64,000 nucleotides of DNA from a virus (lineage: Duplodnaviria > Heunggongvirae > Uroviricota > Caudoviricetes), in IMG/VR virus record IMGVR_UViG_2909314774_000001. The stretch is one strand, 5' to 3'. Position 1 is the first letter of the stretch. Every line of letters begins with the position of its first letter. Shown piece after piece: positions 3,691-29,197 of the stretch. The position numbers and the translations under genes are program-made. A model generated the notes under the pieces. It was not told where the DNA came from. It was given only the letters and a program-made list of their open reading frames with translations, and searched no databases.

Positions 3691-4396
3691 CAGGAGATCA
3701 AGGATGAAAACTCCGAGAGGCATTCGTAATAACAACCCTGGCAACCTCGACAAAGGTTCGCCGTGGCAGGGGCTAATCGACAACCCTGCCGAACCGCGCT
3801 TTTGCACGTTTAAAGACCCTGTTTGGGGGATTCGTGCGCTGGCGGTGACTCTAATTACCTACCACGATAAACGTCGCGCAAAAGACGGCACAAGTATCGA
3901 TACCATTCGTGAAGTTATTGAACGTTGGGCACCGCCGAATGAAAACAACACTGACGCCTACATTAATGAGGTGTCTAAAGCCGTTGGTGTAACCGCAGAC
4001 ATGATCATCGATCTGCATGATTACGACATTCTTCGACCTTTGGTTGAGGCAATCATTCGCCATGAGAATGGGCGAGGTCCGCTAAAAACGCTGAACACCT
4101 GGTATGCGGCAGAAGTTATTGAGGAAGGTCTGCGTCGAGCTGGCGTCGTTAAGCCGGTGAAAACCGTGAAGGCTGTTCCTGTAACTAAAGAAACTGCAGG
4201 CGCAACTGTTACAGCAGGTATTGGTCTGGCGCAGCTGGCCGATGTTATGCCGCAGGTTTCCGCTGCTATGGATAAAGCACAAGGTCATATCTCTAGCGGG
4301 GATACAGTACGCATCATCTTCGGTATTGCCACTATTGTTGTGGCAGGATTCATTGCCTGGTCGCAGGTAAGAAAACACCAGAAAGGGATGGTCTAA
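3677..4396 (+). CDS. Putative cell-wall hydrolase / endolysin-like protein with C-terminal membrane anchor
   Basis: Conserved-looking N-terminal motif GIRNNNPGNL...W.G and a C-terminal TM helix (IIFGIATIVVAGFIAW); lies between the holin-like and spanin-like genes. Function is inferred from context only. Confidence 0.3.
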   Translation: MDCNNRRSRMKTPRGIRNNNPGNLDKGSPWQGLIDNPAEPRFCTFKDPVWGIRALAVTLITYHDKRRAKDGTSIDTIREVIERWAPPNENNTDAYINEVSKAVGVTADMIIDLHDYDILRPLVEAIIRHENGRGPLKTLNTWYAAEVIEEGLRRAGVVKPVKTVKAVPVTKETAGATVTAGIGLAQLADVMPQVSAAMDKAQGHISSGDTVRIIFGIATIVVAGFIAWSQVRKHQKGMV

Positions 4397-15359: not shown

Positions 15360-15646
15360 GCAATTTAACTTCTTGGGACTGGTGGTTGGCCACCTATTTC
15401 TTAGCGGCCGGAGTCGCATTCGCCTTTTACGTAGGTCAGTTAGTCGTAAAACTGCTGCTGATTAAATTTGCCAGTCATAAACGTATCGATGATGGTCTGT
15501 GGCGTCTTGGCACCCTGGTGGAAACTCGCTACGGGCAACTTAAGGAGAACGAAACCATTACTATCCAAGCGAAACGGTTCACTGCCACCATCACAAGAAC
15601 ACCTAGTCGTAGAGTGGCCTTGATCAAAAAAGTCACAACCGAATAA
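15356..15646 (+). CDS. Hypothetical membrane protein
   Basis: N-terminal TM helix (WWLATYFLAAGVAFAFYVG). Confidence 0.4.
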   Translation: MSNLTSWDWWLATYFLAAGVAFAFYVGQLVVKLLLIKFASHKRIDDGLWRLGTLVETRYGQLKENETITIQAKRFTATITRTPSRRVALIKKVTTE

Positions 15647-15881
15647 AAATACAATGATAAGTATTTACTTACTTATCTTTTATGTATAAGATGACTTTGT
15701 TTTCGTTGAGACGCGACTGTTTGAACTTAAATACAAGTGCAAACGAAGAAGTCTATCTGGCAGTAGCCTAATAAGCCAAACACCAGCGAGGTCAGTTTCC
15801 AGCCTCGTTACCGAAATGGGACACACTGAGCGAGTGTGATTGCAGAACGCAGGAGGGAACATTCATGTTCCCTCCGATGAA

Positions 15882-15960
15882 GTAACAGAATGGGCGGTTG
15901 GTATATTTTCAACTCCATATGACTCCCGGATTCTTAGCCACTGACCGCCCATCCTGTTAC
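15882..15960. repeat. Long imperfect hairpin A (candidate structured RNA)
   Basis: 17 bp arms GTAACAGAATGGGCGGT / ACCGCCCATCCTGTTAC around a ~45 nt loop. Confidence 0.5.
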
Positions 15961-16034
15961 GTCATTTTGTTCAATTATGCCGTTTATACTGGGTTAAAAA
16001 GCGGCGACGTAGCCCGGCTGGTATGGTTAGCCAG

Positions 16035-16160
16035 CACACAACGTTGAGGCCATTACATTTTTATCAATTCTAAGGTTCTATTCACAGAGATACCGGCGAG
16101 CGTTGATATGTAACATGTTGGGCAAACATTCAATCGGAGTAGTGGCCTCAACGTTGTGAA
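16035..16160. repeat. Long imperfect hairpin B (candidate structured RNA)
   Basis: Arms CACAACGTTGAGGCCA / TGGCCTCAACGTTGTG around a ~85 nt loop. Confidence 0.5.
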
Positions 16161-16424
16161 GACGGGATTGTTGTGTAGGTTTAACCACTGTTGCCATTGG
16201 TGCCTGTTTTCACAACAAATGATTCCATACATCACATTGTATAAATTACAAAGTAGGTGCTGTCCTCAGAAACATCATCTACTTAAAGATTTTGCCTTCT
16301 ACTATTGAGCGAAGTCGAAAGCGTCTGGCACTAACGAAAAGTGCAAGTAGCGGTGCGTTTCCTGGCAGAAACTAAACCGTCGCGATTGGCACTGTTGAGT
16401 AATAAATACTGGCAGTGCTGAATT

Positions 16425-16499
16425 GATGGTGTAGCTCAGCGGTAGAGCAGTTGGCTGTTAACCAACTGGTCGGTGGTTCGAATCCACCCACCATCGCCA
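16425..16499 (+). tRNA. tRNA-Asn (anticodon GTT)
   Basis: Hand-folded cloverleaf: acceptor GATGGTG/CACCATC, anticodon loop CTGTTAA, T-loop GGTTCGAATCC, 3' CCA encoded. Confidence 0.85.
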
Positions 16500-16504
16500 A
16501 TTTA

Positions 16505-16591
16505 GGGGAGTTAGTCCGTAGGGGCAGCGGGGTAGACTGTAAATCTACTGTCATTGCGACTCGGGTGGTTCGACTCCATCACTCCCCACCA
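16505..16591 (+). tRNA. tRNA-Tyr (anticodon GTA), class II with long variable arm; D-arm non-canonical
   Basis: Acceptor GGGGAGT/ACTCCCC, anticodon arm GTAGA-CTGTAAA-TCTAC, T-loop TTCGACT, CCA encoded; the D-arm would not fold canonically by hand. Confidence 0.6.
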
Positions 16592-16595
16592 AATT

Positions 16596-16671
16596 GCCGG
16601 TTTAGCTCAGTTGGTAGAGCGCCTGCCTTGTAAGCAGGATGTCAGCGGTTCGATCCCGTTAACCGGCACCA
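16596..16671 (+). tRNA. tRNA-Thr (anticodon TGT)
   Basis: Acceptor GCCGGTT/AACCGGC, D-arm GCTCAGTTGGTAGAGC, anticodon loop CTTGTAA, T-loop TTCGATC, CCA encoded. Confidence 0.85.
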
Positions 16672-16762
16672 ACACAACAGGTAAGAGCATTGGGCGAATC
16701 GGCGATACTGACCACAAGCCCGTAAATCGATAGAGTCAGACCAGTGCTCTTACCGTTGTGAG
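16672..16762. repeat. Long imperfect hairpin C (candidate structured RNA)
   Basis: Arms CAACAGGTAAGAGCATTGG / CCAGTGCTCTTACCGTTG, ~47 nt loop; begins right after tRNA-Thr. Confidence 0.5.
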
Positions 16763-16807
16763 GAAGTGCAGCTCTTTGAAGCAACCAGAAGATAAGCATC
16801 TGGCTTC

Positions 16808-16892
16808 ACAACACAACGATAAGATCATTACGGTTAATCGTCGTTCATGTGCACAATGACTGGTCGAAAGGTAGTGATCTTACCGTTGTGAT
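16808..16892. repeat. Long imperfect hairpin D (candidate structured RNA)
   Basis: Arms CAACGATAAGATCA / TGATCTTACCGTTG, ~48 nt loop. Confidence 0.5.
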
Positions 16893-16990
16893 GAATGCAC
16901 AGGCTGATGTGCCGCAACTACAGTAGTGCGCGCTTTGCGGGGCTTGCTACAACCCTGTGTCGGAGTTCAGCACCGACCATCACAATAGCT

Positions 16991-17074
16991 GGAGAGTAGG
17001 GAGCATGGTGCTCAAGCGGTCTTGAAATCCGTCCCATTGTGCAAACGATGATGGTTCGATTCCATTACTCTCCG
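16991..17074 (+). tRNA. tRNA-Ser (anticodon TGA), class II; D-arm and anticodon stem imperfect
   Basis: Acceptor GGAGAGT/ACTCTCC with discriminator G and CCA; anticodon loop CTTGAAA; T-loop TTCGATT; long variable arm. Confidence 0.55.
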
Positions 17075-17075
17075 C

Positions 17076-17157
17076 CAGACACAGCGTTGAGCGGTTTGGC
17101 CTTTTAATCAACCAGATTAAGACTCCGCTAACATAAACCAGACCGCTCAACGCTGTG
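17076..17157. repeat. Long imperfect hairpin E (candidate structured RNA)
   Basis: Arms ACAGCGTTGAGCGGTTTGG / CCAGACCGCTCAACGCTGT, ~38 nt loop; directly after tRNA-Ser. Confidence 0.5.
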
Positions 17158-17234
17158 ATAGACAATTACGGCAGACGTTCTTAACCATAGCTTGCTAACA
17201 TCCTAGCAACACTTTTTTCAGCGCAAAATTCAAA

Positions 17235-17254
17235 GGGGCTTCGGCCCCTTTTTT
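17235..17254. terminator. Intrinsic terminator, probably bidirectional
   Basis: GGGGC-TTCG-GCCCC followed by TTTTTT on the + strand, with a T-rich tract on the - strand as well; separates the tRNA cluster from the convergent gene at 17270-18532. Confidence 0.7.
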
Positions 17255-17269
17255 GTTGAACAGTGCAAT

Positions 17270-18532
17270 TTACTTTGCATAGTCGCCCAATTTTAATATT
17301 TCGCGCTTATATTCATTAACCATGCTACTGGATTCAGTATAAATTCGATTTAAAAGATTATCGTTATCTTTATTTTCATTTATCTTAATTAGTGCTAATT
17401 TATATTCATAGTCATCAAATGCCACAATTAAATGGTGGCCTGGGATTATATCTTCGTCACTCTTAAAGTATATATCTTCAAGTATGTAATCTAGTTGATT
17501 AGATTTTCTTTTCTCGATGTAATCTTCAGCCATAGCTATTACATCATTCCTGTCATTTAACCTGTTTTTTTCGGAAGGCACATCTTCGTAATGTTGCACG
17601 ATTGAACAACCAATAAGGCGTGGGATGTAAACGTCAAAATGAGTAACTCTATCATTCGCGGTTTTAAGTAGTTCCTCAAAGTAGTTTCTTACATGTAAAG
17701 GCAACTTCTCAAAGTAATCATTAATTATAGGAGAACAAGGAGTTTTATAATTCATAAGAACCGACGGTACGAGCTTTGGGTGTCGAAACATCCAGTCCCT
17801 TTTAACGTCCGATGGAACATAATAACTTTTAATGATATTATCAAAATAATTTATCATTCGAGATTTGAATATTTTGTTGAATCTAAGGTTTATGAATGTA
17901 TCCAGATAAGGCATATTTGAATAAGCATCATCAAAAAATATTTCATCATTGAAAAAATCATATTTATTCAATAAACAACACAGTTTTTCCGAATTAATAT
18001 GTTCACAATAATCGATTTTTAATCCAAAGATAGCAATGATCAACTTCATCTGAGGTGGGATTTTAAAAATTAATTGTGACACATACGCTCTTTTTTCCTT
18101 GAGACATTCCCCATCAATATAAAATGAACCATCCACATACTCAAATATATTAATAATATGCTTCACATACTGTATTACCTCATGCTGTCTTACCAATGGG
18201 TAATATAGTCTATGTAACTCATCGCTGTTTAAATTAATTTTGTGTTTATCGATAATTTGTTTTGCAAGAAGACATAACTCATCATGTTGATTTAATAAGG
18301 AATCAAACCATTGTTTAAATGCACTCTTTCGCATTTCGAACAATGATTCAGTTGTTAATTGAAGGGCTGAAAAAGCTGCTTTTGCACTTTTTCTCGCTTC
18401 GTAGGCATTCCATGCTGTTGCTATAAAAGCAAATGCTGTAGCCAATGTTCCAACAGTTTGACCATTTAAAACAACCCAATCCCAAAAAATGACGGTGAGC
18501 AGTAGTATAATAATGAAAATTAAAAAAGGCAT
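17270..18532 (-). CDS. Membrane-anchored protein of unknown function (420 aa), AT-rich island
   Basis: N-terminal hydrophobic helices (FLIFIIILLLTVIFWDWVVL; TLATAFAFIATAW) then a large Asn/Tyr/Lys/Phe-rich soluble domain; base composition far more AT-rich than flanking genes. Confidence 0.6.
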   Translation of the reverse strand: MPFLIFIIILLLTVIFWDWVVLNGQTVGTLATAFAFIATAWNAYEARKSAKAAFSALQLTTESLFEMRKSAFKQWFDSLLNQHDELCLLAKQIIDKHKINLNSDELHRLYYPLVRQHEVIQYVKHIINIFEYVDGSFYIDGECLKEKRAYVSQLIFKIPPQMKLIIAIFGLKIDYCEHINSEKLCCLLNKYDFFNDEIFFDDAYSNMPYLDTFINLRFNKIFKSRMINYFDNIIKSYYVPSDVKRDWMFRHPKLVPSVLMNYKTPCSPIINDYFEKLPLHVRNYFEELLKTANDRVTHFDVYIPRLIGCSIVQHYEDVPSEKNRLNDRNDVIAMAEDYIEKRKSNQLDYILEDIYFKSDEDIIPGHHLIVAFDDYEYKLALIKINENKDNDNLLNRIYTESSSMVNEYKREILKLGDYAK

Positions 18533-19163: not shown

Positions 19164-20267
19164 ATGAAAAATAGCTTTGACAGAGCACGCGCTGCGGAGA
19201 ACACCTCAAAAGAGGCGATAGAGTATCTCGAAAGAGCATCTCAAATGCAGGCCGTTATGATCTCCCAGGTCAGCAATGACATGAGATTCTCGGACGCATT
19301 CATGTTATTCACTCGCTTATCTCTGCTGATAACCAGACGTCGGCCAGAGATCGCTGTTCATTGTATTTTGATACATGTTTTGCCGCACATTGCCGATGTA
19401 AAAGTAAGTGACATTAATAGGTTCATGGTGAACCAACTGGTCAACCCACTAATACTGGATGGCAAAATTGTTATGGGCCGCCGCGTTTTCTCTCTGATGA
19501 AGCAGTTCCTTAGCTGGTGCGCCTTCCAGGGGATGATAGACGTGTCACCGTTAAACGATATGTCACTTAACAAAGTTGCCGGTGGCGCAAAGCCCACACC
19601 TCGCGAGCGGAAGCTGACCGACGCAGAGGTATGGGTGTTCTGGAATATATGGGACTACTTCAATGTGTGTGCTGGTACAAAATGGGCGGCCAGGCTATGT
19701 CTTGTATCCGCAAGACGACCTGACGAAGTACTGCGGGCTAAAAAAAGTGAGTTCAATCTTAAGCGTGGGGTTTGGAATCAAGGCAAGAGGAACAAATCTG
19801 CCCGTGAGCATTCTCTGCCTTTAAGCTCATTAATGCGCACTTGTATTGAAGAGTTGTTCGAATATGGTAAAGACAGCCAGTGGCTCGTGCCTTCGAATAA
19901 AAAAATCGGGAAAGACCTTCCTATGTCTAAAGTGGCAATAGCCCAGGCATTACGTCGTATTCTGGAACGACCAGAACTGATGGAGCTTGAGCCATTTACA
20001 CCCCGAGATTTGCGCCGTACTGCGCGTAGTTACTTCCCAGCATTAGGCATAAGCCAGGAGGTATCACGTAAAATCATGAACCACAGTCTTGAGGGGATAG
20101 ATCGGGTCTACGACCGGCACGATTATATGGACGAGATGCGAGACGCCTTAGAAAGTTTCTCGACGTACATCGCATCAATCGTAGAGCAACCGGATTTAGA
20201 CGAAATTGACCACAAATTTAAGGGAGATCGTCTATCAACAGAGCTTATTCGTGTAAATTTTTCATAG
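19164..20267 (+). CDS. Tyrosine recombinase (phage-integrase family) lacking an N-terminal arm-binding domain
   Basis: Core-binding and catalytic domains with R...H..R...Y-type segments (LVSARRPDEV..., ...RDLRRTARSYF..., HSLEGIDRVYDRHDY); nothing upstream resembles an arm-binding domain. Confidence 0.7.
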   Translation: MKNSFDRARAAENTSKEAIEYLERASQMQAVMISQVSNDMRFSDAFMLFTRLSLLITRRRPEIAVHCILIHVLPHIADVKVSDINRFMVNQLVNPLILDGKIVMGRRVFSLMKQFLSWCAFQGMIDVSPLNDMSLNKVAGGAKPTPRERKLTDAEVWVFWNIWDYFNVCAGTKWAARLCLVSARRPDEVLRAKKSEFNLKRGVWNQGKRNKSAREHSLPLSSLMRTCIEELFEYGKDSQWLVPSNKKIGKDLPMSKVAIAQALRRILERPELMELEPFTPRDLRRTARSYFPALGISQEVSRKIMNHSLEGIDRVYDRHDYMDEMRDALESFSTYIASIVEQPDLDEIDHKFKGDRLSTELIRVNFS

Positions 20268-28380: not shown

Positions 28381-28652
28381 AAGAATTATGGCGCTTGTTG
28401 AGGAAGTCACTCCTCTTACGCACTTTGTTTTGCCATGCCGGCAGTTAGCTTCTGCCTTTGACTATTCATGCGGCAACCCCGCATTTCGCCACAATGGGCA
28501 ATTCACTTTTATGGAATAAACTGGCCGTTGTGTCGATTTAATTAGCATGGCCTTACCATGCTAATTTATTCAACTTGTACAATCCTGCAAATCTATCCAC
28601 TCAGGCTTACACCGTCTTCGTTATTGTAGAAATGAGGATCATCAGCGTTGAA

Positions 28653-28868
28653 TCAGCTTAGAGCAATGACATTTGCTGCTGCTGGGCCTTTAGCCCCATT
28701 CTCGATAGAGAATTCGACCTGCTGGCCTTCTTCCAAAGTGCGGAAATTATTACTCTGAATTGCCGAAAAATGTACAAAAACATCTTTACTGCCATCAGCA
28801 GGAGAAATAAAGCCAAAGCCTTTATCAGAGTTAAACCATTTTACTAAACCAGTCATTTTATTAGACAT
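28653..28868 (-). CDS. Cold-shock protein (CspA family)
   Basis: [23 protein letters not shown]...VFVHFSAIQ... closely matches the E. coli CspA-family sequence; start set at the conserved MS.KMTG. Confidence 0.95.
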
Positions 28869-29197
28869 AGATATTACCTTCTTAATTTTGTGAGCCACAT
28901 AGTGCGGCGAGAATTTGATCTGTATAGATTGGGACTTACTTAGGCACTTAAGGAGGAGACTCACGAAGAAGGGAAATCAGAAGATAACACTGAACTGAGA
29001 CTGCTTTACTAAAACTGCTTACATAAGGTCTGTCTTGCAAACCAACGATGCTATTAACGCATACCCCTTCTTTTCATGCAACCTTTATTTTTCAAAGATA
29101 ACTAATTTTTGTCACCATTGGTTTAGTAAACGTTAACGAACCAGACGATGCCAGACACCTTTACAGAGAACAGATGCCCGCCAATTGGCGGGCATCA

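What the first reader, a model, noticed from the sequence alone, without database searches (positions are those of the whole stretch)
15882..17157. Family of five long covarying hairpins interleaved with the tRNA genes
Five elements of 80-125 nt each fold as a 14-19 bp imperfect stem around a 38-85 nt loop. Four share flanks of the form CACAAC...GTTGTGA, but the stem sequences differ between copies while pairing is kept (for example GTTGAGGCC / GGCCTCAAC against GGTAAGAGC / GCTCTTACC). That compensatory variation argues for selection on structure rather than recent duplication of a mobile repeat. They fill most of a 1.6 kb ORF-free locus that otherwise holds only four tRNAs, two of them directly abutting a tRNA 3' end. 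They could be structured small RNAs or processing signals; I do not recognise them as a described family.
Basis: seen in the sequence. Interest (0 to 1): 0.6.

Follow-up and report, generated by a model that had tools for sequence, protein, structure and literature searches.

The report
Conserved hairpins punctuating phage RNA arrays
The five hairpins are real members of a large, unannotated family of covarying RNA stem-loops that separate tRNAs and other small structured RNAs in non-coding arrays of many enterobacterial phages, and they most likely act as cutting sites (probably for RNase III) that release the individual RNAs.

Summary
All five hairpins exist at the stated places. They fold far better than shuffles (z -4.2 to -9.9). 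In 22 copies, 18 of 20 stem pairs show changes on both sides, and 95.7% of cells are paired. G.U outnumbers A.C 36 to 15, and the + strand outscores the - strand by 6-15 bits. So the tRNA-sense RNA is the folded molecule.

The window is an SSU5-like phage-plasmid. The family is not specific to tRNAs. At least 70 distinct copies occur in SSU5-like, P1-like and lambdoid phages, including HK620's late leader. They sit in ORF-free arrays downstream of lytic-cycle or prophage promoters.

The hairpins alternate with other structured modules closed by the inverse helix GUUGUG...CACAAC. One module type weakly resembles the prophage sRNA family STnc100/PasD. No Rfam family matches the hairpins, and RefSeq leaves the E. 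coli copies unannotated.

The best-conserved stem pairs lie symmetrically about pairs 7-8. They roughly fit RNase III's proximal and distal boxes. I therefore read the hairpins as RNase III-type punctuation of a polycistronic tRNA/sRNA precursor (confidence about 0.45).

Separately, the array's 5' end carries a tmRNA-like 10-codon tag template with no recognisable tRNA-like domain.

The parts
15739..15774 (+). tmRNA-like tag template, GCA AAC GAA GAA GTC TAT CTG GCA GTA GCC TAA TAA (ANEEVYLAVA**). It lies in a conserved module of about 15700-15850 at the 5' end of the array. It is not one of the five hairpins but belongs to the same non-coding locus.
   Evidence: Sequence. Alignments across relatives. 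Weak tmRNA hits in Rfam. ARAGORN negative.
15852..15875 (+). Short perfect hairpin 'E0' (GGAGGGAACAT/ATGTTCCCTCC). In relatives the same stem encloses loops of 14 to about 50 nt.
15877..15965 (+). Hairpin E1, the divergent member with flanks GTAACAG...CCTGTTAC. Its loop motif UCCCGGNUUC is conserved in orthologues.
   Evidence: z -5.1; 40.6 bits +, 25.5 bits -.
16037..16158 (+). Hairpin E2 (CACAACGTTGAGGCC.../...GGCCTCAACGTTGTG, 82-nt loop).
   Evidence: (z -5.9). Orthologues L009 2887-3007 and L005 1921-2023 score 40.8 and 42.3 bits. The window copy itself was not retrieved by model R1.
16153..16216 (+). Inverse hairpin S' (GTTGTGAAGACGGG...CCTGTTTTCACAAC). It shares its GTTGTG with the 3' arm of E2.
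   Evidence: z -3.3. Compensatory changes in L005, L009 and L014 are read by eye from the alignment.
16425..16671 (+). tRNA-Asn(GTT), tRNA-Tyr(GTA) and tRNA-Thr(TGT), packed 4-5 nt apart.
16673..16760 (+). Hairpin E4. It begins 2 nt after the CCA of tRNA-Thr. Its loop carries a roughly 45-nt motif that sits in other stems in relatives.
   Evidence: z -5.6; 40.6 bits +, 34.4 bits -.
16755..16812 (+). Module S (GTTGTGAGG...CTTCACAAC). It is 92-97% conserved in Klebsiella, Citrobacter, Cronobacter, Salmonella and P1-like plasmids.
16812..16890 (+). Hairpin E5.
   Evidence: z -4.2; 46.7 bits +, 35.1 bits -.
16885..16985 (+). Module K. It is closed by GUUGUGAUG/CAUCACAAU. The 5' hairpin is GCACA-GGCUGA-UGUGC and the 3' hairpin is GUCGG-AGUUCAGCA-CCGAC, and their loops are complementary (GCUGA/UCAGC). 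It is a distant relative of STnc100/PasD.
16991..17077 (+). tRNA-Ser(TGA).
17080..17157 (+). Hairpin E6. It begins 3 nt after the CCA of tRNA-Ser. Its loop motif AAGACUCCGC is conserved.
   Evidence: z -9.9; 47.4 bits +, 35.7 bits -.
17232..17251 (+). Intrinsic terminator-like hairpin plus T-run that ends the array on the + strand.

Best explanation
**What it is.** The five hairpins belong to one family, which I call H. Each has a stem of about 20 bp with the consensus 5'-CACAAC-GGUAAG/GUUGAG-NNC-AUUGG ... CCAGUG-NN-CUYAMC-GUUGUG-3'. The stem encloses a variable loop of 30-85 nt.

**Where it acts.** H is transcribed as part of a long ORF-free precursor on the + strand. In this window the precursor runs from about 15700 to the terminator at 17251.

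**Proposed role.** I propose that H elements are punctuation marks of this precursor, recognised by host RNase III. The lower and middle stem would be a double-stranded site, with the cut predicted near CACAACGG^UAAG on the 5' arm and 2 nt offset on the 3' arm.

**Predicted consequences of cutting**
1. It frees the upstream RNA with a short 3' trailer. For tRNA-Thr and tRNA-Ser this trailer can be trimmed back to CCA.
2. It releases the upper stem plus loop as a small hairpin RNA.
3. It frees the downstream module with a 5' GUUGUG end. That end can pair with the CACAAC left by the next cut, which closes and protects the excised S or K module.

**Shown:** the hairpins, their covariation, the strand, the alternation with modules, and the wide distribution.

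**Inferred:** transcription as one precursor, RNase III as the enzyme, the cut positions, and the closing of excised modules.
For: **Structure and strand**
- Structure and covariation.
- G.U 36 against A.C 15, p=0.005, with symmetric scoring.
- The + strand beats the - strand by 6-15 bits for the four window copies the model retrieves.

**Conserved stem pairs, 70 distinct copies**

| Pair | Composition |
|---|---|
| 4 | A-U 70/70 |
| 11 | A-U or U-A 70/70 |
| 12 | G-C 64/70 |
| 3 | C-G 53/70 |
| 18 | U-A 62/65 |
| 17 | often U.G |

- Pairs 3/12 and 4/11 are symmetric about pairs 7-8. This is what two proximal boxes 2 bp apart would give.
- PMC1540722 defines pb1 as G-C, pb2 as A-U/U-A (the strongest determinant) and the distal box as UA/UG. 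From its nucleotide numbering I infer that the distal box lies 7-8 bp from pb2.
- Stems of 20-25 bp are the size RNase III needs.

**Placement**
- 36 of 70 copies are followed by GUG/AUG, the start of a K or S module.
- Module-closing helices covary beyond the shared 6-mer. P1 has GUUGCGGUG/CACCGCAAC and L002 has GUUGUGGUGG/CCACCACAAC.
- H sits directly after tRNA CCA ends, and in L005/L014 it overlaps the CCA.
- The arrays lie in ORF-free stretches downstream of known or apparent phage promoters: pR'/qut in HK620, Pban in P1, and after cI plus operator-like repeats in L042.

**Precedent**
- An RNase III cut just downstream of tRNA metY releases that tRNA (cited in PMC5371410).
Against: - There is no transcript or cleavage data.
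- The distal-box register is off by 0-1 bp, and the required U.G is at the expected pair in only a minority of copies.
- Pair 6, which would be pb4 of the lower box, is C-G. PMC1540722 calls this a catalytic antideterminant.
- Natural RNase III sites rarely match the consensus, so a match carries limited weight (PMC5371410).
- Conserved loop motifs (UCCCGGNUUC, AAGACUCCGC, T-loop-like GAGUUCGACUC, and the 45-nt motif) are not explained by a pure processing role.
- tRNA-Asn, tRNA-Tyr and tRNA-Thr are packed without any H between them, so H is not needed for every tRNA.
- In HK620 the H copy upstream of the tag module has a different lower stem, so self-closing of excised modules is not universal.
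Confidence: 0.45

Rival explanations
1. Each hairpin is itself a functional small RNA or RNA domain. The long stem is only a scaffold, and the loop does the work, for example through a base-pairing seed, protein or ligand binding, or tertiary docking through T-loop-like motifs. Processing, if any, is incidental.
For: - Orthologous loops keep specific motifs while their stems change. E1 keeps UCCCGGNUUC even in K. oxytoca, where the stem is rewritten. E6 keeps AAGACUCCGC. E2 keeps CACAGAG, ACATGTTGGG and AATCGG.
- The 45-nt motif in the E4 loop recurs inside three unrelated stems, with internal compensatory changes CUGAC/GUCAG to CAGCC/GGCUG.
- T-loop-like GAGUUCGACUC or GGGUUCGAAUCCC occurs in 8 of 70 loops.
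Against: - Across the family the stem sequence is conserved, not the loop. There are at least 25 unrelated loop types, and loops run from 2 to about 85 nt.
- Large parts of orthologous loops are unalignable.
- No Hfq-type 3' end or terminator follows the hairpins.
Confidence: 0.25
2. The elements act at the DNA level. They would be short inverted-repeat boundary sequences, like linkers or MITEs, at which phages exchange RNA-gene cassettes by recombination. On this view the hairpin potential is a by-product.
For: - Near-identical relatives differ by whole modules, with junctions inside the CACAAC/GTTGTG repeats. Cyrano lacks 16678-16985 between CAnCACAA repeats. SCU-107 lacks E4+S. SCU-175 carries other cassettes.
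- The same modules are shared between unrelated phage backbones: P1-like, SSU5-like and lambdoid.
Against: - G.U exceeds A.C (36 against 15), and scores are strand-asymmetric.
- Within the annotated tRNA-bearing loci I oriented, H copies score better on the tRNA-sense strand.
- 18 of 20 pairs covary.
- No target-site duplications are visible at the flanks.
- Recombination at repeats is expected anyway and does not exclude an RNA role.
Confidence: 0.12
3. The hairpins are passive structural insulation. Dense secondary structure would keep a long untranslated transcript free of Rho loading sites and of 3' exonuclease entry, and would let neighbouring tRNAs and sRNAs fold independently. No specific cleavage is involved.
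For: - The arrays are 0.7-1.6 kb of untranslated RNA placed upstream of protein genes in P1 (tciABC-ban) and HK620 (holin S).
- Almost every segment of the window locus folds into a hairpin.
Against: - Insulation would not require near-invariant base pairs at fixed positions or a shared stem sequence across distant phages.
- It would not require the terminal 6-mers shared with neighbouring modules.
Confidence: 0.1

Closest known systems
RNase III processing hairpins in polycistronic transcripts. Examples are the site just downstream of tRNA metY in the E. coli metY-nusA-infB operon, the phage T7 early sites such as R1.1, and the rRNA processing stalks.
   Same: - A double helix of about 20 bp sits between functional RNAs.
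- One lies directly 3' of a tRNA.
- It occurs in phage lytic-cycle transcripts.
- The conserved pairs fall where the proximal and distal boxes would be.
   Different: - H is a sequence-conserved multi-copy family with large variable loops.
- It shares its terminal 6-mers with neighbouring inverse hairpins.
- Cleavage is untested and the match to the consensus is imperfect.
STnc100 (Rfam RF02076) / PasD prophage sRNAs
   Same: - The K-type module that follows many H copies has the STnc100 core architecture: a closing stem, a 5' hairpin, a central region, and a 3' hairpin CCGGG-AGGCA-CCCGG abutting the closing stem.
- The P1 copy scores 33.4 bits, E 6e-6.
- Both lie in prophage regions near Q (bioRxiv 10.64898/2026.05.13.724894).
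   Different: - The score is below the gathering score of 47.
- The window's K copy and HK620's give no STnc100 hit (at E<=10 and E<=1 respectively).
- The H hairpins themselves are not covered by that model.
Integron attC sites
   Same: - Imperfect hairpins of 60-140 nt whose structure rather than sequence is kept.
- Inverse core ...AAC and core GTT... at the two ends.
- They alternate with cassettes.
- A tyrosine recombinase gene lies 2 kb away.
   Different: - The cores do not fit RYYYAAC/GTTRRRY (ACACAAC, GTTGTGA).
- There are no consistent extrahelical bases.
- The cassettes are RNAs, not ORFs.
- The same elements occur in P1 and HK620, whose recombinases differ.
- The folded strand is the transcript sense.
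tRNA-linked hairpin RNAs of viruses: murine gammaherpesvirus 68 tRNA-pre-miRNA units, and the stable RNA species 1 and 2 in the phage T4 tRNA cluster (from my own knowledge, not tested here).
   Same: Long hairpins or small stable RNAs are co-transcribed with viral tRNAs and released by tRNA-processing or RNase III-class enzymes.
   Different: There is no sequence relation. H also occurs without tRNAs. Bacteria have no miRNA pathway.
tmRNA (ssrA). This applies to the module at 15700-15850, not to the hairpins.
   Same: - A 10-codon open frame without a start codon.
- It begins GCA AAC GA. and ends in hydrophobic (L/M)xxA plus UAA.
- UAA sits at -5..-3.
- The stop codon lies in the loop of a covarying hairpin.
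   Different: - No acceptor stem, T-arm, CCA end or G3:U70 was found.
- ARAGORN is negative in 62 sequences (the window, 17 related loci and 44 viral loci).
- Rfam tmRNA models reach only 11-24 bits.

Membership tests
Any Rfam 15 family | Covariance-model score at or above the family's gathering score | tested here: not met
   Only three tRNAs and cspA reach the gathering score in the window. At E<=10 the hairpins get only chance-level miRNA or snoRNA hits.
tRNA / tRNA pseudogene | Cloverleaf detectable by ARAGORN or the Rfam tRNA model | tested here: not met
   ARAGORN finds only the four tRNAs. The window and P1 H positions that were scanned give no tRNA-clan hit at E<=10. Some loops in relatives contain a T-arm-like GGGUUCGAAUCCC, but none in the window.
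Y RNA-like YrlA (RF02553) | Match to the YrlA model (long stem plus tRNA-like domain) | tested here: not met
   No hit in the window at E<=10. The single weak P1 hit (25.6 bits, gathering score 69) lies over the real tRNAs.
Integron attC | R''/R' cores RYYYAAC and GTTRRRY | tested here: not met
   ACACAAC fails at position 3. GTTGTGA fails at positions 5 and 7 (sequence).
Integron attC | Conserved extrahelical bases and an IntI-type integrase nearby | tested here: inconclusive
   A bulged A is present in only some copies. ORF 19164-20267 is a generic Phage_integrase, and the IntI-specific insertion was not examined. The same hairpins occur in P1 and HK620, which have other recombinases.
MITE / REP-type mobile palindromes | Target-site duplications, both orientations, and scattering through the genome | tested here: not met
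   No duplications at the flanks. All four window copies the model retrieves score better on the + strand. Outside this locus the 64-kb window holds only one weak hit, at 28487-28535.
E. coli RNase III substrate | About two turns (>=20 bp) of mostly regular double helix | tested here: met
   20-25 pairs per hairpin. 95.7% of cells are paired.
E. coli RNase III substrate | Proximal box (pb1 G-C, pb2 A-U/U-A, pb3 A-U, pb4 A-U/U-A) and distal box UA/UG at fixed spacing (PMC1540722) | tested here: inconclusive
   - Pair 12 is G-C in 64/70 and pair 11 is W-W' in 70/70.
- Pair 10 is A-U in 39/70 and pair 9 is U-A in 52/70.
- Pair 18 is U-A in 62/65.
- U.G is at pair 17 in 24 copies or at pair 19 in 9.
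- The register is uncertain by 1 bp, and the lower-box pb4 is C-G.
E. coli RNase III substrate | Cleavage by RNase III in vivo or in vitro | not testable with these tools
   No transcript data were available. No paper found in the library addresses these elements.
STnc100 / PasD (for module K, 16885-16985) | RF02076 score at or above 47 bits | tested here: not met
   The P1 copy scores 33.4 bits. The window copy and the HK620 copy give no hit. The architecture is shared.
tmRNA (for module 15700-15850) | Tag reading frame with a resume codon, no start codon, and the stop codon in the helix-5 loop | tested here: met
   Ten codons plus TAA in all 55 aligned copies, which were pre-selected with a pattern that fixes this frame. 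Synonymous changes are present, and the stop-codon hairpin covaries in the copies I compared.
tmRNA (for module 15700-15850) | tRNA-like domain: acceptor stem with G3:U70, T-arm and a 3' CCA | tested here: not met
   ARAGORN calls no tmRNA in the window or in 61 related loci. None was found by reading the window, P1, HK620 and the K. oxytoca plasmid.

The most novel reading that the evidence does not exclude
The hairpins may be the processing grammar of a widespread, undescribed phage 'translation RNA island'. In this reading, one precursor is cut at H sites into three kinds of product: tRNAs, tRNA-shaped decoy or regulatory RNAs (the K and S modules), and a free-standing tmRNA-like tag template that lacks its own tRNA-like domain. 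That template would have to be decoded by a mechanism not yet known, or act as a mimic that interferes with host trans-translation. The excised upper hairpins would themselves be functional small RNAs, making this a bacterial counterpart of RNase III-processed miRNA clusters.
Probability: 0.12. Interest if true: 0.9.

Novelty: new variant of a known kind. Interest (0 to 1): 0.6.

Why it matters
P1, HK620, Stx-type lambdoid phages and SSU5-like phage-plasmids are among the best-studied or clinically most relevant enterobacterial elements. Yet 0.7-1.6 kb of their genomes in ORF-free regions next to lytic-cycle or prophage promoters is unannotated, or annotated as doubtful ORFs such as P1 plp/upl on the opposite strand.

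Showing that this space is a modular array of covarying RNAs with a common punctuation element would have three consequences:
1. It gives a handle for annotating it. One covariance model already finds more than 70 distinct copies.
2. It explains how phage tRNAs and prophage sRNAs such as STnc100/PasD are matured and shuffled between phages.
3. It exposes a tmRNA-like tag template whose mode of action is open.

If RNase III is the enzyme, rnc hosts should be defective in maturing these phage tRNAs and sRNAs. That is directly testable.

Tried and rejected
- **Integron attC sites.** The cores do not fit, extrahelical bases are inconsistent, and the cassettes are RNAs.
- **Degraded tRNAs or tRNA-like elements.** ARAGORN and Rfam give nothing.
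- **YrlA/Y RNA, GOLLD/ROOL-type large RNAs, and any other Rfam family.** No hits.
- **MITE/REP elements.** There are no target duplications, all copies share one orientation, and they are confined to the array.
- **A complete or permuted tmRNA around the tag template.**
  - I looked for an acceptor/T-arm/CCA partner of the conserved 5' GUUUUCG and GCGACUUUGCGG. A 17-pair long-range helix seen in P1 conflicts with a local hairpin that covaries across 8 loci. It is absent from HK620 and the window, so I dropped it.
  - A CGAAAAG partner near tRNA-Asn proved to be a hairpin loop that varies.
- **boxA.** UGCUCUUA in the 3' arm resembles the Nus-factor boxA, but the positions vary among copies and lie inside a duplex, so it remains an unpursued lead.
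- **Extended pairing between the 3' arm of one H and the 5' arm of the next.** This holds for E4/E5 (16 nt, 88%) but not for other neighbours.
- **Model R1 with filters off.** It gave collapsed scores and no information.
- **Literature searches.** Searches on P1 plp/upl, phage-plasmid tRNA hairpins and phage tmRNA-like RNAs found nothing relevant. The P1 genome paper and Krinke & Wulff 1990 are not held.
Full report
**Setting.** The window is an SSU5/pHCM2-like phage-plasmid.
- The best matches to 15600-17300 are Escherichia phage CMS-2020a and phage Cyrano, at 95-98% identity.
- The finding lies in an ORF-poor stretch between a small upstream ORF that ends at 15646 and an ORF on the opposite strand that starts at 17270.
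- ARAGORN finds four tRNAs on the + strand: Asn 16425-16499, Tyr 16505-16591, Thr 16596-16671 and Ser 16991-17077.
- An intrinsic terminator-like site at 17232-17251 (+) closes the stretch.

**Check of the observation.** All five hairpins are there.

| Hairpin | Coordinates | Arms |
|---|---|---|
| E1 | 15877-15965 | 22 nt, 91% |
| E2 | 16037-16158 | 20 nt, 95% |
| E4 | 16673-16760 | inner arms 14 nt, 93% |
| E5 | 16809-16893 | 23 nt, 87% |
| E6 | 17080-17157 | 20 nt, 95% |

- As RNA they fold with z-scores of -5.1, -5.9, -5.6, -4.2 and -9.9, and 0 of 200 shuffles fold as well.
- The flank pattern CACARC-N50-80-GYTGTG occurs four times in 64 kb against 0.5 expected. All four are here and all are on the + strand.
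- The five hairpins cover about 465 nt, so they do not fill 'most' of the locus.

**Covariation.** I aligned the arms of 22 copies, with loops replaced by GAAA. In four copies I removed a bulged A so that the pairs stay in register. The copies come from the window, two CMS-2020a relatives, P1, a Klebsiella phage, SSU5, and Citrobacter, Cronobacter and K. oxytoca plasmids.
- On the 20-pair helix, 95.7% of cells are standard pairs and 18 of 20 pairs change on both sides.
- The covariation score is 0.70, against 0.23 for shuffles (0 of 500 reach it) and 0.08-0.18 for slid partners.
- Caveat: the arms were chosen because they pair, which inflates the percentage paired. It does not inflate the count of compensatory types.

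**Which molecule folds.** With scoring that treats G.T and A.C alike, the stems of 25 distinct copies hold 36 G.U and 15 A.C mismatches (p=0.005). Counted as distinct events the numbers are 28 and 11 (p=0.009).
- A covariance model built from the arms (R1) scores E6, E5, E1 and E4 at 47.4, 46.7, 40.6 and 40.6 bits on the + strand. On the - strand the scores are 35.7, 35.1, 25.5 and 34.4 bits.
- The folded strand is therefore the sense strand of the tRNAs, which argues for RNA.

**The family is much wider than this locus.**
- A degenerate arm pattern finds 64 viral contigs.
- R1 finds 130-144 matches in the loci examined, or 83 places once the two strands are merged. These make 70 distinct sequences of 66-115 nt.
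- Many sit beside the same tRNA set in P1-like and SSU5-like elements. About 25 of the 60 pattern-matched loci scanned have no tRNA within about 5 kb, and several of these hold true members: L025, L027, L036, L041, L042, L058, L064.
- In phage HK620 the array lies between the late promoter pR'/qut and the holin gene.
- In contig L042 it follows a cI-like gene, a terminator-like hairpin and operator-like repeats.
- In P1 it lies in the C1-controlled Pban operon. There two of its modules are annotated as ORFs plp and upl on the opposite strand.
- RefSeq annotates nothing under the matches in 410 of 5426 complete E. coli genomes.
- Rfam has no family for the hairpins.

**Anatomy of the array.** Every H hairpin ends in CACAAC...GUUGUG.
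- The same 6-mers also close inverse hairpins, GUUGUG...CACAAC, that lie between H copies. These are S' at 16153-16216, S at 16755-16812 and K at 16885-16985.
- These inverse modules are real. By eye, the stem of S' changes with compensation in L005, L009 and L014.
- The closing helices of K covary beyond the shared 6-mer: GUUGUGAUG/CAUCACAAU here, GUUGUGGUGG/CCACCACAAC in L002, and GUUGCGGUG/CACCGCAAC in P1.
- K has a 5' hairpin and a 3' hairpin whose loops are complementary. The pairs seen are GCUGA/UCAGC here, ACUGAU/AUCAGU in L003 and GCUGAU/AUCAGC in L041 and HK620. One position covaries, which is thin evidence.
- The P1 copy of K matches Rfam STnc100 at 33.4 bits (E 6e-6, below the gathering score of 47) and shares its architecture.
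- STnc100 and PasD are prophage sRNAs found near gene Q (bioRxiv 10.64898/2026.05.13.724894).
- S is 92-97% conserved across Klebsiella, Citrobacter, Cronobacter, Salmonella and P1-like plasmids.
- Of the 70 distinct H copies, 36 are followed by GUG or AUG, the start of a K or S module.

**Modularity.** Close relatives differ by whole modules.
- Cyrano lacks tRNA-Tyr and everything from 16678 to 16985, with the junction inside CAnCACAA repeats.
- SCU-107 lacks E4 and S.
- SCU-175 carries a different H after tRNA-Thr and an extra H-K unit.
- Loop contents also move. The roughly 45-nt motif in the E4 loop sits inside a different stem in the K. oxytoca plasmid and a third stem in the Klebsiella phage, with internal compensatory changes.
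- The short hairpin at 15852-15875 has loops of 2 to about 50 nt in relatives.

**What is conserved in H.** Across 70 copies the loops fall into at least 25 unrelated types, but the stem is partly fixed.

| Pair | Composition |
|---|---|
| 4 | A-U 70/70 |
| 5 | A-U 65/70 |
| 11 | A-U or U-A 70/70 |
| 12 | G-C 64/70 |
| 3 | C-G 53/70 |
| 18 | U-A 62/65 |
| 17 | U.G in 24 |

- Pairs 3/12 and 4/11 are mirror images about pairs 7-8.
- Pertzev and Nicholson (PMC1540722) define an E. coli RNase III site as follows: a 4-bp proximal box (pb1 G-C; pb2 A-U/U-A, where G-C blocks binding; pb3 A-U; pb4 A-U/U-A next to the cut) plus a distal box UA/UG. Substrates cut on both strands have two proximal boxes. 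From the nucleotide numbers given in the paper I infer that the distal box lies 7-8 bp beyond pb2.
- H fits the proximal boxes at 9-12 and, mirrored, at 3-6, and it has a U-A 7 bp beyond pb2.
- The U.G is one pair off in most copies, and pair 6 is C-G, so the fit is suggestive only.
- Natural sites seldom fit fully (PMC5371410). That paper also cites the RNase III cut that releases tRNA metY.

**Most likely mechanism (confidence about 0.45).** H elements are RNase III-type punctuation of a polycistronic tRNA/sRNA precursor.
- Cuts near CACAACGG^UAAG and 2 nt offset on the 3' arm would leave tRNA-Thr and tRNA-Ser with trailers of about 10 nt for exonuclease trimming.
- They would release the upper hairpins as small RNAs.
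- They would give the S and K modules ends (CC)GUUGUG...CACAAC(GG) that pair with each other. This would explain why all copies keep the same lower stem.
- All steps after 'the hairpins exist, covary and are RNA-sense' are inferred.

**Rivals**
- The loops are the functional part (0.25). Conserved loop motifs support this. Loop diversity and stem conservation count against it.
- DNA-level cassette boundaries (0.12). Module indels at the repeats support this. The G.U bias, the strand asymmetry and the covariation count against it.
- Passive insulation against Rho and exonucleases (0.10). This does not explain the invariant pairs.

**Noticed alongside.** The 5' end of the array holds a tmRNA-like tag template at 15739-15774: GCA AAC GAA GAA GTC TAT CTG GCA GTA GCC TAA TAA.
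- All 55 aligned copies have 10 codons plus TAA, but they were selected with a pattern that fixes this frame. The tags include ANEEVYLAVA, ANEEMYLAVA, ANDDLMMVAA, ANDDVVLMAA and ANDEQFLAVA.
- Synonymous changes occur, and most copies have UAA at -5..-3. The stop codon sits in the loop of a hairpin that covaries in the copies compared.
- No conserved start codon exists.
- No tRNA-like domain was found by ARAGORN in the window or in 61 related loci, or by reading the sequences. Rfam tmRNA models reach only 11-24 bits.
- I found no description of it in the searchable library.
- How it would be decoded is unexplained.

**Verdict.** The family is real, widespread and undescribed in Rfam and RefSeq. 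It is best seen as a new variant of phage RNA-processing stem-loops, embedded in a modular RNA array that deserves experimental attention.

Noticed in passing
window 15700-15850 (tag 15739-15774, + strand): A tmRNA-like tag template (ANEEVYLAVA**) with no start codon sits at the 5' end of the array.
- Relatives have UAA at -5..-3, while the window copy has CAA there.
- The stop codon lies in a covarying hairpin loop.
- It is conserved with synonymous changes in P1, D6, SSU5, HK620 and more than 120 viral contigs.
- No tRNA-like domain was found.
   Followed up: partly
window 16885-16985 (+); L004 2183-2302; L082 1512-1606; L041 5693-5822: Module K is tRNA-shaped: a closing stem plus 5' and 3' hairpins with complementary loops. 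It is distantly similar to Rfam STnc100/PasD (33 bits in P1) and follows about half of all H hairpins.
   Followed up: partly
window 16755-16812 and 16153-16216 (+): Inverse hairpins S and S' (GUUGUG...CACAAC) share their terminal 6-mers with the flanking H hairpins, so the two foldings exclude each other over 6 bp. S is 92-97% conserved across five genera.
   Followed up: partly
window 16694-16740 (E4 loop); L017 1800-1851; L005 about 2230-2290: A roughly 45-nt motif (AAUCGGCGAUACUGAC...GUCAGAC) recurs inside three unrelated closing stems, with internal compensatory changes. It may be an independent structured RNA domain, and it matches no Rfam family.
   Followed up: no
L004 (P1) 1575-2144; L001 (Cyrano) 3950-4162: The P1 ORFs plp and upl, and Cyrano CYRAN_40, are annotated on the strand opposite to the tRNAs. 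They lie over H, S and K modules or over tRNAs, so they are probably not genes. The P7 record annotates nothing there.
   Followed up: partly
L004 1620-1670; L003 2870-2885; L041 5650-5665: Some H loops in relatives contain T-arm-like sequences (GGGUUCGAAUCCC, GAGUUCGACUC). In P1 one of these is preceded by UUUUGCGACG, which resembles the D-loop region of tmRNA. The window copies have none.
   Followed up: no
L017 (K. oxytoca plasmid) 2283-2363 and 2400-2530: Two tRNA-like stretches have a GGTTCGA T-arm and a GCCA 3' end, and ARAGORN does not call them. This locus has the tag module and H hairpins but no called tRNA.
   Followed up: no
window 28487-28535 (-) and 28628-29046 (-): A cspA thermoregulator (Rfam, 183 bits) marks a phage-borne cold-shock gene. 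Just downstream, after a terminator-like hairpin, lies a weak H-like hairpin (19 bits) followed by a K-like start, GUGGCGAAAUGCGG.
   Followed up: partly
window 16501-16595 versus L001 3901-3904: tRNA-Tyr is present or absent among near-identical relatives. The junction falls in the similar 3' ends of tRNA-Asn and tRNA-Tyr (..CCAATTT / ..CCAAATT).
   Followed up: partly
window 16741-16760 and similar 3' arms: The 3' arm of many H copies reads UGCUCUUA(CC), which resembles the boxA sequence bound by NusB/NusE. The arrays lie in ORF-free leaders downstream of phage promoters. The positions vary and lie in a duplex, so this may be chance.
   Followed up: no
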